The notes under the pieces are model-generated. The model worked only from the letters and a program-made list of their open reading frames with translations. It was not told the origin of the DNA and searched no databases. DNA of 64,000 nt from the human T2T-CHM13v2.0 reference genome, Homo sapiens. The stretch's first letter is position 1, and every line of letters starts with the position of its first letter. Position numbers and translations under genes: made by a program. Of the stretch, positions 32,601 to 37,892 are shown in pieces. Where the stretch lies: assembly GCF_009914755.1 (NCBI RefSeq), contig NC_060929.1; one strand, given 5' to 3'.

Positions 32601-32944
32601 GGACTGAAAAAGGTATAGAAGAAGGGGCTGAAGCTATCATAAGTTACTGCATTTAGTTATTAAATTCTCATCTCCCCATTGGGTTGTAGATACAAAAGCA
32701 AGGAGAAAAAGAAAGGAGGAATAGAGTGAATTAAAAGCTTCCACAAAGGTTGTTGGTTAATAAAAGGGCATTAGGGCTCATTCAGTCGTCTCACTGAGGT
32801 GCTCCACTGCATCCTTGTGCAGCATTCTTCCTTTCTAATAAACTTTCATTTTTCAAACCCATACTGTTGTCGGTAAATTCTTTTTACCAACCCACAAGTC
32901 GACAACTTTCCAATGCCAGGGCTCTGACGCCTCACCTGGCATCT

Positions 32945-32962
32945 TGGTGGCCCATATGGGGA
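32945..32962 (+). other. Primer-binding site complementary to tRNA-Ile(AAU)
   Basis: TGGTGGCCCATATGGGGA versus expected TGGTGGCCCGTACGGGGA; both mismatches are CpG transitions; 3 nt after the U5 end. Confidence 0.85.
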
Positions 32963-32996
32963 CTTTACTGGGATTTGTTCCCTCAGTGGTCTGGTT

Positions 32997-33302
32997 TTTT
33001 GTTTGTTTGTTTTGGTTTGTTTGTTTTTTTGAGATGGAGTCTCTCGCTCTGTCGCCCGGGCTGGAGTGCAGTGGTGCAATCTCGGCTCACTGCAAGCTCC
33101 GCCTCCCGGGTTCACGCCATTCTCCTGCCTCAGCCTCCCCAGTAGCTGGGACCACAGGCACCCGCCACCACGCCCGGCTAATTTTTGTTATTTTTAGTAA
33201 AGACGGGGTTTCACCCTGTTGGTCAGGCTGGGGCTGGTCTCAAACGCCTGACCTCGTGATCCGCCCACCTCAGCCTCCCAAAGTGCTGGGATTACAGGCG
33301 TG
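32997..33302 (-). mobile_element. Alu in the ERV leader, 5'-truncated by ~17 nt (Y-like right arm, S-like left arm)
   Basis: TSD GTGGTCTGGTT at 32986-32996 and 33303-33313; (GTTT)n-type tail. Confidence 0.92.
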
Positions 33303-33903
33303 GTGGTCTGGTTCTTTACTCGTGGGAATTGAAGGTCCCTGGCTGAGGCCACTCTTTGGTGGGATCCTGAAACCCTGGAGAAGGGATACCTGTCTGTGGC
33401 TGTTCTTAGAGGTGAGAGATTGGCCAGGGTTATTTTCTATTTTCGGACTGCCAGTGAGCCAGCTTGAATACTCTTTGGCAGTTGAGGGTTTTTGGCCGAG
33501 GGCACTCCCCGGTGTTACCTGAAGGCCAAGACAAAAGAGCGAATTTGCTATGGCCCGTCAGGGTGGCAAGTCCACTTTCACTTTAATGCTCTATAAACCG
33601 TGTCTTGGAAACGAGCGGCAGCGATCTCAACTCTGCACAGACACACTCCACTGGTTGTGGACCCACTTTTGGATTCAATTTAATCACAGGCACCACATCC
33701 TAAGCTACGGTGAGTTGCCGTTTACATTAGGTTTGAGCTGACCACTCCTACCAGGGCACACCTTGCCTGGTCATCCAGGCAAGGGCAGCAGGCCCTCTAT
33801 CCATGATGGGATGCCCCTGAACAGAGTGCGCCAAAGGGGAAAGTGAAGTCCAAATTCCTCAGGGACGCCTCACGAATCTTGTAGTCCCTTACCTAAACCT
33901 AAC

Positions 33904-35400
33904 ATGGGTTCAATTCATTCTTCAATTCATTCCTACTCACCCTTGGGTTGCATTCTTAAAAAATGTTCTTATTCTGACCCACAGACTCTCAAAAAGAAGT
34001 GTATAATTTTCATTTGTATTCAGAGGTGCCTTATGTTCTGGTCTTTTGGGCTTTATCTCAAAACCCAAAGTTACATAAAAATTGTAGTGTATGCTTCCAA
34101 GGAACTTCCTCTCTCCCCGATTCCGATGTCTTAAATCATCCTTCCTTTTACCTGTCACAGTCTCCTCAGCGGGCTCCTGCTTCACCTACACCCTCTCCAT
34201 CTGCTCCATCATCCCCCAATCAACTTCCCTGTCCAGTTGCTTTACCCCCCTCACATATTCACACAGGAGTCACATATGCCACTAGTCGTACAGAGTCCTC
34301 AGAAAATCCCAAAAATGTTTTGCCTCTCCTCAAGGTGGCAAATGGGCATTTGGGAACAATTCGAGTTCATATCCATTTTCCAATGTCTGATATTTTGCAA
34401 ATTCAATCCAAACTGGGTTCTTTTGGCCAGGGTCCCTCTAAGATCATTCAAGAATTTTGGGCTTTAACTATTGCCTTCAATTTAACTTGGCAAGACATAT
34501 TCATAGTATTAATTACTTGCTGTTCCCATGAAGAAAAATCATGCACATGGTCTTTAGCTTGAGCTTGGGCAGACAAAGCTCATGCTTGTAATCCCAGTGA
34601 TAATAGAGCTGGGGCAGAAGCTGTGCTTGACACAGAACCCAATTGGCAATACCAGGCCGCCAATGCCTACCCAGAGGCAGGAGCAGACAAGATCAAATAA
34701 ACTTGCTTGTTGGAAGAAGTGAAAAAGGCTGTAACAAAATCTGTTAATTTTTCGAAATTATGAGAAGTCACCCAGGAGCCATCTGATAATCCTGCCCTTT
34801 TCAAACCCAGACTGGTGGAGGTCATCCATAAATACACAGATTTAGACCCTGAAAGCCCTGAAGGCCAATCCACTCTGGCCATACATTTTATAAGTCAGGC
34901 TTCCCCAGATATTAGACAAAAAAACCCCAAATTAGAGCAAGGCCCACAAACTCCCTTTTCTACTTTATTAAATATGGCCTTTAAGGTTTTCCATAACCTG
35001 GAAGAAACATCAAAAATTTAAAAAGCTCAATGGGAGGAGGAAAAATGCCGTCACCAGCTAATTACATGGCAACAGCATTGGAACATTCTTTTTTGTTAGC
35101 TAGTAACCCCAAGGCTAGACCACATAATACTAACAGAACAAGGGTCTGTCATCACTGCAGAAATCCAGGACACTGGAGTAGAGAATGTCCCAAATCTACA
35201 GGTTACAAGCTGCCCCAGGGACCCTGTCCTCATTGCAAACAAGAGGATTGTTTGAAGAGTGAGTGTCCCTCTCTCCCTCATGGCGGGGGAGGGGTTGGGG
35301 CACCACTTCTTTCTGGGCTGTCGCAGCCACCACCTTGTCAACCTACCCAACAAGGGGGTCCTGCAGAATGAGGGCAAGGGTGAGGGCAAGGGCAAGGACA
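33904..35400 (+). pseudogene. gag: Gammaretrovirus-like gag relic (MA, CA, NC)
   Basis: MA start MGS...SPLGCILK; CA RVHIHFPMSDILQI..LGSF..LTWQD and KYTDLDPESPEG..HFISQASPDIR; zinc knuckle CHHCRNPGHWSREC plus a degenerate second knuckle; many stops and frameshifts. Confidence 0.88.
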
Positions 35401-35519
35401 AACACCTCTATCCCTGGATTTTGATTAAGCCTCTGAAAGTCATCCTCTAGATGAGTGATGGGGCTTTGAGGCCATCTAGGCTCCTGTCTTTTCCATCTGT
35501 ATAGATGAGCCTTTATAGA

Positions 35520-35800: not shown

Positions 35801-35817
35801 TAGCCGTATAAATTTTC

Positions 35818-36066
35818 TTTTTTTTTTTTCCTTTGAGACGGAATCTCACTCTGTCACCCAGGCTGGAGTGCAGTGGTGTGATCTCAGCTCACTGCAAGCT
35901 CCACCTCCCAGGTTCATGCCATTCTCCTGCCTCAGCCTTTGTATTTTTAGTAGAGACGGGGTTTTACCATGTTAGCCAGGATGGTCTCGATCTCCTGAAC
36001 TTGTGATCCACCCGCCTCAGCCTCCCAAAGTGCTAGGATTACAGGCATGAGCCAACGCACCTGGCT
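35818..36066 (-). mobile_element. AluY with ~50-bp internal deletion
   Basis: GCAAGCTCC and GTTAGCCAGGATGGTCTCGATC signatures; jumps from CCTCAGCC to TTTGTATTTTTAG; 15-bp TSD GCC(G/A)TATAAATTTTC at 35803-35817 and 36067-36081. Confidence 0.92.
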
Positions 36067-36069
36067 GCC

Positions 36070-36400
36070 ATATAAATTTTCAAACAAGCCAAATGGCTGC
36101 ACACACTTTCCCAAAGTAACCAAGACAGGACCAAAACTTTTACTGATTGGTTTCCAAAAATCACTTGGCTTCTCCCATTCCTTGGGTCTTTGTTCCTTGT
36201 TATTCTTCTTTTAATATTCAGTCCCTGTCTTTTTAACACCCTCATTAGATTTATATCTTCCAGATTACAAAGATGCCACCTACAGATGGCTATGCAATCC
36301 CAATACCATCCTGCAACGGCAACTTCCACTTACATGGAGCCTCTTGATGGAATCCGGTCTCCCCTCCATGAATGGGGTTTCAAAATCCTTCATTCCCTTT
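36070..36400 (+). pseudogene. env: env TM C-terminal relic (membrane anchor and cytoplasmic tail)
   Basis: ...WLLPFLGSLFLVILLLIFSPCLFNTLIRFISSRLQ..., a gammaretroviral TM anchor with a PC-x-x-N motif. Confidence 0.8.
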
Positions 36401-36600
36401 ACGACAGAGAGCAAGAAGGGAAAAATACAACCTGTCCCTTCAATATCCCCTTTCAGAAGGAAGTAGCCAGACAAACTCAATGCCCCTCTTAATTGCGGGT
36501 GTTTTCTCTTTCTTGAGAACCCAATAGGCAGCAGGTAGACATGGGCATGGTGGGGTATAAAGGGTCAAAGATTTGACCAAAATATTTGTCAGGGGCAAAA

Positions 36601-36926
36601 TGAGGAGAGCAAAAATGACCTGGTAACCATTGAACAGTCCCTGGCGACAAAAACTCTTTCTCTGAGGAATTTAGAAGGGAGCAAAGACCACTTCATTGGC
36701 ATCTGGTTTCAGGCCTCTTTCAACTTTTATAAGTAACTAACATTTCTATACATCTCTGGAATGCCATGCTGAAACTCATTTTACAACCGTTAAGCTCCCA
36801 GCTTAAGGTGGATAAGTACCCTTAAGGAAAAATCCACGGCGGCACATTCAGTCCTCTCACTGAGGTGCCCCACTGCACTCTTCTGCAGCCTTCTTCCTTT
36901 CTAATAAACTTTCCCTTTCCAAACCT
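36601..36926 (+). promoter_or_regulatory. 3' LTR U3-R with decayed TATA (GATAAGTA, 36811-36818) and AATAAA (36903-36908)
   Basis: Follows purine tract AGGGGCAAAA (36591-36600) and is truncated ~18 nt after AATAAA. Confidence 0.75.
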
Positions 36927-37892
36927 AATAATAATAATAAAAGGGTATTGAAGAGATGAATTTTGTTCCCTTCCCCTCTCCATTTTTCACAGTGGAGCTA
37001 CATGGAGGGCTGACCGTTTCAGTCATTCTTAATATTTTGAGTTCCCATTGTCTACACAATGACAGCCAATCAACCAGACTATTCAATGGGGGCCAGGGGC
37101 ATGGGAGTCCAAGCCCTGAACCCTGTGTGCCTGCTCTGGTCACATCTCTGCCCTATGTCCATCTGCATCTGGCAAAGCCCAACTTCTGACACCATGTACC
37201 CCCCTCACCACCCGTGCCCATGCTGCTTTCTGCCTCCATGCTTTTGCTTTTGCTGTTCCATCTGATGGTAGCACCTTCTTCGTGCTCCTTGGCCTGGCTG
37301 TTTCCTACTTACTCATCAAGGCTAACTACGTGTCATCTTTTCTAGGAAGCACCCCTGTGTTTCCAGGCTGGTTTAAGGCCTCCTTCTTTATTTACCACAG
37401 CACCCCAGATACACCTGTGTTTTACCTCTTACCGTATTCATATTAAAATTATCTGTTTGTGCGTTTGTTTCTTCCTCTAGATTTTAAGCTCTTCAAGGCT
37501 AATGAGGTGAGTACAATGCCTAGGACATAATAGACTTCAAATAAGTTTTGTTTGTTTACTAACGTGAAAAGCAAATATTGAGGGAAAATTTTGTTTTAAT
37601 ATCTGGGAAAGACTTGTGGGTAAGATCATGTTGAACATAATAATGATATTCTACAGATTTACATTTCTAGACATCACAAAAGTACAAAACCAAATATCAA
37701 AACTGGATTCCCAAACTTGTACCCCTCACACCCATGTCTGTTGTCATAAGGAGGAGTGGCGTGAACGAGAGATTGAGAGAAGCTCTGGAGACTGCCCACT
37801 GACATCCCTGCTCCACCAATGCTAACTGAATAGCCCTGAGCAAGTTACTGAGCCACTTTTGCCTCAATTCTTTATTAAAATGGGGGCAATAA

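What the first reader, a model, noticed from the sequence alone, without database searches (positions are those of the whole stretch)
32759..36949. ERV genome copied by L1 machinery (processed pseudogene of a MER101-like, tRNA-Ile-primed element)
Seen: the element starts at R with no 5' U3 and ends ~18 nt after the 3' AATAAA with no U5. It is followed by an (AAT)n tail and flanked by a 14-bp A-rich TSD at a TT/AATAAAA site, not the 4-bp TSD of class I integrase. Established: this is the signature of L1-mediated retroposition of ERV RNA, best known for HERV-W. I do not recall it being described for this family. The two R copies differ at about 10 of ~83 positions by hand count, so it is old.
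Basis: partly seen in the sequence, partly recalled or inferred. Interest (0 to 1): 0.78.

Follow-up and report, generated by a model that had tools for sequence, protein, structure and literature searches.

The report
L1-made copy of an ERV transcript
This 4.2-kb stretch is an old DNA copy of the RNA of an extinct retrovirus, pasted into human chromosome 5 by the LINE-1 machinery and not by the virus's own integrase, a route known mainly from the HERV-W family.

Summary
The element has an 85-nt R at each end (32775-32859 and 36841-36925, 75 of 85 identical). It has U5 and a primer-binding site only at the 5' end and U3 only at the 3' end. A (TAA)5 tail remnant follows, and 15-bp direct repeats (14 of 15 identical) flank it at a TT/AATAAAA site. 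No U3 lies upstream and no U5 downstream.

Its first base sits 28 nt after a TATA-like box that relatives conserve. Its last R base lies 17 nt after AATAAA. It is therefore colinear with a capped, polyadenylated ERV RNA, the signature of LINE-1 target-primed reverse transcription.

The primer-binding site matches tRNA-Ile(AAT) at 16 of 18 positions. Gag, a protease remnant and the Env TM tail give gammaretrovirus-type Pfam hits. Most of pol and env is missing.

In the same genome, 11 of 13 other copies with a leader keep a 5' U3, and 16 of 22 with the env end keep a 3' U5. The rest were truncated or undetermined. None shows this structure, so it looks like a one-off event.

The label "MER101" could not be tested. 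L1-made ERV copies are known for HERV-W and for one HML-2 locus. This is a new member of a known kind, of modest interest.

The parts
32758..32772 (+). 5' target-site duplication, TAATAAAAGGGCATT. It is preceded by TT, so the site reads TT/AATAAAA.
   Evidence: Direct repeat D17, 14 of 15 identical to 36935-36949. Chance test.
32773..32774 (+). Two unassigned bases (AG) between the duplication and R. They could be untemplated or cap-derived, or a start site 1-2 nt further upstream.
   Evidence: Read. They match neither the 3' LTR (GC at 36839-36840) nor the 3' repeat. The cap-G idea is recalled knowledge, not tested.
32775..32859 (+). 5' R, the first part of the element. No U3 lies before it.
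   Evidence: 85 nt, 75 of 85 identical to 36841-36925. No U3 match upstream anywhere in the window.
32860..32941 (+). U5, present at the 5' end only. It ends in CA.
   Evidence: In relatives that are not 5' LTRs, LTR matches stop at query position about 167, which is 32941. U5 follows R in relatives.
32945..32962 (+). Primer-binding site complementary to tRNA-Ile(AAT).
   Evidence: 16 of 18 match the reverse complement of the tRNA gene's 3' end plus CCA. Both mismatches are at CpG sites.
32987..33306 (-). Later Alu insertion in the leader, with its own duplication GTGGTCTGGTT.
   Evidence: Repeat D8. Hub masking list. Relatives lack it.
33307..33903 (+). Untranslated leader.
   Evidence: 73-89% identical to 13 other loci in the genome.
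33904..35400 (+). gag, broken by stops and frameshifts. It starts with ATG (MGS...). Capsid Gag_p30 lies at 34767-34994 and a zf-CCHC knuckle at 35141-35194.
   Evidence: ORF list. Pfam: Gag_p30 E 3.5e-12, zf-CCHC E 4.7e-6.
35450..35809 (+). Protease remnant. The body breaks off here, and the deletion junction is at about 35809/35810 (gtat^aaatttt).
   Evidence: RVP 19.3 bits, below the 20.7 cut-off, E 0.0014, at 35710-35781. Homology to three relatives ends at 35804-35812.
35818..36066 (-). Second, later Alu. Its 15-bp duplication (35803-35817 and 36067-36081) spans the deletion junction.
   Evidence: Repeat D10. Junction read.
36074..36340 (+). C-terminal end of Env TM (membrane span and tail). 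It is all that is left of env.
   Evidence: TLV_coat profile positions 510-559 of 560, E 1.6e-6, at 36118-36255. 74-89% identical to 22 other matches in the genome.
36413..36425 (+). Polypurine tract (inferred).
   Evidence: Purine run a few bases before the TG that starts U3. Inference only.
36433..36840 (+). U3, present at the 3' end only. A TATA-like box (ATAAGT) lies at 36813-36818.
   Evidence: Relatives' LTR matches begin at 36435-36437, and the env-end matches stop at 36431-36432. ATAAAT stands at this column in 17 of 22 relatives' LTR rows.
36841..36925 (+). 3' R, with AATAAA at 36903-36908. No U5 follows it.
   Evidence: No U5 match downstream.
36926..36934 (+). Remnant of the poly(A) tail, decayed to (TAA)n. 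The array runs on to 36940, inside the duplication.
   Evidence: Tandem Repeats Finder: period 3, 5 copies, 36926-36940.
36935..36949 (+). 3' target-site duplication, TAATAAAAGGGTATT.
   Evidence: Chance test.

Best explanation
An unspliced, capped and polyadenylated transcript of a gammaretrovirus-like, tRNA-Ile-primed endogenous retrovirus was reverse-transcribed and inserted here by the LINE-1 machinery through target-primed reverse transcription.

Proposed steps:
1. The L1 endonuclease nicked the bottom strand at a TT/AATAAAA site.
2. The T-rich end primed on the poly(A) tail.
3. The whole RNA was copied back to its 5' end.
4. Staggered second-strand cleavage left a 14-15-bp duplication.

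The copy was promoterless at its 5' end and dead on arrival. Two Alus inserted later.

Shown: the RNA-colinear anatomy, the duplication, the tail remnant, the missing 5' U3 and 3' U5, and full LTRs in the relatives.

Inferred: that L1 was the enzyme, and that 32775 and 36925 are the true start and poly(A) sites. It is not known whether the pol-env deletion was already in the template RNA.
For: - Anatomy: R-U5-PBS ... U3-R with 85-nt R copies. No U3 upstream and no U5 downstream anywhere in the 64-kb window.
- 5' end: it falls 28 nt downstream of a TATA-like box that reads ATAAAT in 17 of 22 relatives' LTR rows.
- 3' end: it falls 17 nt after AATAAA and is followed by (TAA)5.
- Duplication: 14 of 15 identical, at a TT/AATAAAA site. 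Controls gave 0 of 8529 spaced window pairs and 4 of 20000 shuffles.
- Relatives carry full LTRs, so the family's LTR really is U3-R-U5. Of 13 other copies with a leader, 11 have U3 before R. Of 22 other copies with the env end, 16 have U5 after R.
- The three hallmarks are those listed for L1-made HERV-W pseudogenes (PMC5537654, passages).
Against: - The tail is short and is no longer poly(A). Only about 9 nt of (TAA)n lie outside the duplication.
- The start and poly(A) sites are inferred from sequence. No RNA data were used.
- No source provirus was found. The closest relatives are only 75-89% identical, and none shares the deletion.
- No empty site could be examined. No other primate genome is on hand, and both flanks are unique in this genome.
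- Two bases at the 5' junction are unexplained.
Confidence: 0.88

Rival explanations
1. It is an ordinary integrase-made provirus that later lost its 5' U3 and its 3' U5 through two separate deletions.
For: The element is old and battered. It carries two Alu insertions and a 1.4-2.2-kb internal deletion relative to its relatives. Other copies of the family are truncated at odd points, for example C5:1099 within R and C14:169 within the leader.
Against: Two independent deletions would have to end exactly at the predicted start site and the poly(A) site. They would also have to leave a 15-bp direct repeat abutting both ends, which arose in 0 of 8529 and 4 of 20000 controls. No 4-6-bp integrase-type duplication can be seen at an LTR edge, because no LTR edges exist here.
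Confidence: 0.03
2. A cDNA of the ERV RNA was captured at a chromosome break without the L1 endonuclease. This could be endonuclease-independent L1 insertion, or repair using a cDNA made by another reverse transcriptase.
For: The tail remnant is short and two extra bases sit at the 5' junction. The enzyme itself cannot be read from the sequence.
Against: The site TT/AATAAAA fits the L1 endonuclease preference TT/AAAA. A 14-15-bp duplication is the typical L1 length, and break capture usually leaves deletions, not duplications (motif and length as cited in PMC5537654; the remark on break capture is recalled). The retrovirus's own reverse transcription starts at the primer-binding site and rebuilds full LTRs, so it cannot give this anatomy.
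Confidence: 0.06
3. The terminal repeats and flanking repeat are chance resemblances in a rearranged ERV fragment. No retrocopy event occurred.
For: No result from any call here supports this.
Against: The R/R match has E 1e-26 within the window. Its edges coincide with the TATA-to-start distance and with the AATAAA-to-end distance. The flanking repeat is far beyond chance.
Confidence: 0.01

Closest known systems
HERV-W processed pseudogenes (L1-mediated; Pavlicek 2002 and Costas 2002 as cited, and Grandi 2016/2017: PMC5016936 and PMC5537654, passages read)
   Same: 5' R-U5 and 3' U3-R in place of full LTRs, a poly(A)-derived tail, a TT/AAAA-type site and a 5-15-nt duplication. All are seen here.
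   Different: The family differs: the primer-binding site fits tRNA-Ile, and the LTR is unrelated to LTR17 by name. In HERV-W this route made 135 of 213 members. Here it made this one copy, and no other copy I could resolve shows the structure.
HERV-K(HML-2) retrocopy at 2q32.1 (Schmitt et al. 2013, PMC3590776, passages read)
   Same: A single, sporadic L1-made copy of an ERV RNA in a family that otherwise spread as proviruses. It has a 13-nt duplication with one mismatch and a short A-tail.
   Different: That copy derives from a spliced rec-like mRNA of a betaretrovirus-like family. This one keeps the leader, gag and protease, so it derives from unspliced RNA of a gamma-like family. Its internal junction is not a GT-AG splice.
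Ordinary processed pseudogenes of cellular mRNAs
   Same: Same machinery and the same end signatures.
   Different: The template is a retroviral genomic RNA, so the copy looks like a provirus with clipped LTRs. Annotation that does not split LTRs into U3, R and U5 files it as a provirus. Vargiu et al. say they did not separate the two (PMC4724089, passages).

Membership tests
L1-mediated processed pseudogene of an ERV (HERV-W type) | The 5' LTR is reduced to R-U5 and the 3' LTR to U3-R, colinear with the RNA. | tested here: met
   R/R pair only. No U3 upstream and no U5 downstream in the window. Relatives have U3-R-U5.
L1-mediated processed pseudogene of an ERV (HERV-W type) | A poly(A) tail directly after the poly(A) site. 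| tested here: met
   (TAA)5 at 36926-36940, starting 17 nt after AATAAA. It is short and decayed, so this is the weakest of the three hallmarks.
L1-mediated processed pseudogene of an ERV (HERV-W type) | A TT/AAAA-type insertion site and a 5-15-nt target-site duplication. | tested here: met
   TT/AATAAAA site. The 15-mer is 14 of 15 identical, with 0 of 8529 and 4 of 20000 in the controls.
L1-mediated processed pseudogene of an ERV (HERV-W type) | An empty orthologous site with a single copy of the duplicated sequence. | not testable with these tools
   No other primate genome is held. Both flanks are unique in this genome, so there is no paralogous stand-in.
Class I (gammaretrovirus-like) ERV primed by tRNA-Ile | An 18-nt primer-binding site complementary to the 3' end of tRNA-Ile, just after U5. 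| tested here: met
   16 of 18 against a tRNA-Ile(AAT) gene of this genome plus CCA. Both mismatches are at CpG sites.
Class I (gammaretrovirus-like) ERV primed by tRNA-Ile | Gamma-type gag and env domains. | tested here: met
   Gag_p30, zf-CCHC and the TLV_coat C-end score above the Pfam cut-offs. RVP scores just below its cut-off.
MER101 / MER101_I (Repbase, Dfam) | Sequence match to the MER101 LTR and the MER101_I internal consensus. | not testable with these tools
   No repeat library is on hand. MER101_I/MER101 is listed as a Repbase pair (PMC5753468). Telescope-style MER101 loci printed in one paper (1p22.2a, 2p25.2) are not among the loci matched by my leader, protease or env-end probes. 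That proves nothing, since those loci may hold other parts.
Ordinary provirus | Two full LTRs (U3-R-U5) and a 4-6-bp duplication. | tested here: not met

The most novel reading that the evidence does not exclude
This would be the first documented L1-made copy of the unspliced genomic RNA of a class I ERV family other than HERV-W. That would show that L1 capture of ERV RNA is a sporadic, general event and not a peculiarity of W. The copy is also a fossil of one RNA molecule. It marks the transcription start and the poly(A) site of an extinct virus to within about 2 nt, with no RNA data needed.
Probability: 0.55. Interest if true: 0.4.

Novelty: new member of a known kind. Interest (0 to 1): 0.3.

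Why it matters
[quoted passage not shown] A clean single case in an unrelated, tRNA-Ile-primed family, beside the one HML-2 case, suggests that the limit is one of frequency and not of kind. Expression level or timing could set that frequency.
- Such copies are promoterless at the 5' end and should not be counted as proviruses in HERV expression or dating work. Dating them by "LTR-LTR" divergence is invalid.
- The copy gives the R boundaries of its family for free.

Tried and rejected
- **Second case in the family.** I checked the ends of all copies that match the leader (13 others) or the env 3' end (22 others), and none shows this structure. Five loci that first seemed to lack U5 or U3 (L003, L014, L025, L026, L046) were read by eye. 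Three have a diverged U5, L046 has U3, and L026 has an Alu inside R and stays open.
- **Splicing as the cause of the internal gap.** Rejected. The junction gtat^aaatttt keeps 4 bases that a GT-AG splice would remove.
- **Alu insertion as the cause of the deletion.** Rejected. Both copies of the Alu's duplication contain the junction, so the deletion came first.
- **Shared deletion as a pointer to the source.** None found. All 7 relatives that match both probes have 1.4-5.7 kb between them.
- **C5:1099 copy as the source.** Rejected. It is 89% identical over only 278 nt and 75-79% elsewhere.
- **Paralogous empty site.** Not available, because both flanks are unique.
- **Family name from the literature.** Cytoband-style names (MER101_5q21 and six others) gave 0 papers.
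- **Not available.** Pavlicek 2002 (PMC155283) is not held.
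Full report
**What is there**

The window is human chr5 (T2T-CHM13), and the element lies in an intron of a predicted lncRNA. Reading 32500-37300 and the repeat search show the following order of parts:

- a 15-bp direct repeat, TAATAAAAGGGCATT (32758-32772)
- two unassigned bases, AG
- R (32775-32859)
- U5 (32860-32941, ending in CA)
- a primer-binding site (32945-32962)
- an antisense Alu with its own duplication (32987-33306)
- the leader, then gag from an ATG at 33904
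- a protease remnant up to about 35809
- a second antisense Alu (35818-36066)
- the C-terminal end of Env TM (36074-36340)
- a purine tract, then U3 (36433-36840, starting with TG)
- R again (36841-36925), with AATAAA at 36903-36908
- (TAA)5 (36926-36940)
- the second copy of the repeat, TAATAAAAGGGTATT (36935-36949)

The two R copies are 75 of 85 identical, with 5 transitions and 5 transversions.

**Is U3 or U5 hidden in the flanks?**

No. I ran a word-7 blastn of 36380-36925 (env end, U3 and R) and of 32775-32986 (R, U5 and the primer-binding site) against all 64 kb. It returned only the self-matches and the R/R pair (E 1e-26). Everything else was 11-39 nt with E of 8.7e-4 or worse, and none of it flanked the element.

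**Is the flanking repeat chance?**

No. A 15-mer with at most one mismatch between the 30 nt before R and the 30 nt after R occurred in 0 of 8529 equally spaced window pairs. It occurred in 4 of 20000 shuffles of the two flanks.

**Are the R edges real RNA ends?**

The human assembly can be searched, and the LTR has many relatives: 73 matches, with 40 of 182 first-look candidates scored, and 40 of 103 scored for R-U5. In these relatives U3, R and U5 are contiguous.

- LTR matches that are not 5' LTRs stop at the equivalent of 32941. Matches from the env end stop at 36431-36432. This fixes the LTR edges.
- Row-by-row alignment of the U3/R junction in 22 relatives' LTRs shows a TATA-like box. 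It reads ATAAAT in 17 of 22 and ATAAGT in the window. It lies 28 nt upstream of 36841, which is the base where the 5' end of the element begins to match.
- The 3' end lies 17 nt after AATAAA.

The element thus starts where RNA polymerase II should start and ends where cleavage should occur. This is inference from sequence. No RNA data were used.

**What kind of virus**

- The primer-binding site matches 16 of 18 bases of the reverse complement of the 3' end plus CCA of a tRNA gene on contig C6. ARAGORN calls that gene tRNA-Ile(AAT). Both mismatches are at CpG sites.
- Pfam finds Gag_p30 (E 3.5e-12), a zf-CCHC knuckle (E 4.7e-6) and the last 50 positions of TLV_coat (E 1.6e-6). The retroviral protease hit lies just below its cut-off at 19.3 against 20.7 bits.
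- All frames are broken.
- The name MER101 could not be checked. Repbase lists MER101_I with MER101 (PMC5753468, passages), but no repeat library is available here.

**Internal gap**

Three relatives were compared: chr12, chr10 at 71.66 Mb and chr10 at 67.12 Mb. All three match the window up to 35804-35812 and again from 36068-36074. They carry 2.0, 2.2 and 1.4 kb in between. In the chr12 copy this stretch holds a reverse-transcriptase fragment (RVT_1 at 26.8 bits, below the 29.6 cut-off) and a TM piece.

- The junction in the window, gtat^aaatttt, is not a GT-AG splice.
- Both copies of the second Alu's 15-bp duplication contain the junction, so the deletion is older than that Alu.
- None of the 7 relatives that match both the protease probe and the env-end probe shares the deletion. 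Their gaps are 1.4-5.7 kb.
- Whether the deletion was in the template RNA, arose during copying, or came later is open.

**Survey of the family**

5' ends:
- The leader probe found 20 matches besides the window's own, with all 18 candidates scored. These make 13 other loci, after setting aside one X/Y pair of internal fragments and two 60-nt matches.
- 11 of the 13 have U3 upstream of R.
- The other 2 are cut off next to unrelated LTR-like sequence. C5:1099 is cut at about R position 61, and C14:169 at leader position 35.

3' ends:
- The env-end probe found 22 other matches, with all 23 candidates scored.
- In 16 of them U5 follows R.
- The remaining 6 are undetermined: C11:135, C23:807, C2:2413, C10:671, C11:774 and a C4 fragment. 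The reasons are later insertions, truncation, or stretches that were not fetched.

None starts at R or ends at R plus an A-rich tail.

**Age**

- LTR-LTR K2P distances of three relatives are 0.18, 0.20-0.22 and 0.24. The window's R/R distance is 0.128 (10 of 85, 95% interval 5.8-20.6%).
- With a neutral rate of about 2.2e-9 per site per year (recalled, not from a call), the proviruses are about 40-55 million years old.
- The retrocopy is at most about 30 million years old, with wide error.
- This is only an upper bound. The two R copies of one RNA come from different LTRs of the source, so they need not have been identical at insertion.

**Source**

None was found. The best local matches are 89% over 278 nt of leader (C5:1099), 86% for the env end (C11:774) and 87% for part of U3 (C8:330). 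The C5 copy drops to 75-79% elsewhere.

**Mechanism**

An RNA-colinear copy with a tail remnant must have been primed at the poly(A) end. The retrovirus's own reverse transcription starts at the primer-binding site and rebuilds full LTRs, so it cannot give this anatomy. The TT/AATAAAA site and the 14-15-bp duplication fit L1 endonuclease and target-primed reverse transcription. These are the hallmarks given for HERV-W pseudogenes (PMC5537654, passages).

**Literature**

- HERV-W is called the sole HERV group specifically mobilised by L1 (PMC5537654, abstract). It has 135 pseudogenes among 213 members (PMC5016936, passages).
- One L1-made HML-2 copy at 2q32.1 is described as the first for that group (PMC3590776, passages).
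- Vargiu et al. did not separate processed pseudogenes from proviruses (PMC4724089, passages).
- Four full-text searches and two for cytoband-style names turned up no paper that links MER101 or a tRNA-Ile ERV to L1-made copies.
- Of the 37 papers that hold "MER101", I saw 25 in the search listing and read passages in 4.
- Pavlicek 2002 was not held, and I read no supplements. A mention there cannot be excluded.

**Verdict**

It is a new member of a known kind and, as far as I could resolve, a one-off in its family. The family name is untested, and the interest is modest.

Noticed in passing
window 35803-36081: The 15-bp duplication of the second Alu (GCCGTATAAATTTTC and GCCATATAAATTTTC) straddles the junction of the 1.4-2.2-kb pol-env deletion. 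The Alu therefore landed within 8 nt of an older breakpoint. This is probably coincidence helped by a TTTTC/AAA nick site, and no other explanation was tested.
   Followed up: partly
L031 (C12:70115200-70124200), L063+L064 (C10:71660800-71672000), L065 (C10:67116800-67123800): The relatives with two LTRs are themselves short. Only 1.4-2.2 kb lie between the protease end and the TM tail in 6 of 7 copies, and 5.7 kb in one. The family as found may therefore be largely non-autonomous.
   Followed up: partly
L066+L085 (C5:109929450-109931300): A fragment of the same family lies 6.7 Mb away on the same chromosome. It begins within R at about position 61, directly after an unrelated LTR-like end. 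It is 89% identical to the window over 278 nt of leader but only 75-79% elsewhere. It could be a mosaic or a recombinant.
   Followed up: partly
L062 (C23:145199500-145207500): An X-linked relative has both LTRs, but its leader is followed after about 240 nt by the env 3' end, so gag is missing altogether. A further 2.3 kb of unmatched sequence lies before the 3' LTR.
   Followed up: no
window 36433-36925: The retrocopy keeps a complete U3 with its TATA-like box at the 3' end, pointing into unique downstream DNA. It lies in the same orientation as the predicted lncRNA LOC105379104. Whether it drives any transcription was not examined.
   Followed up: no
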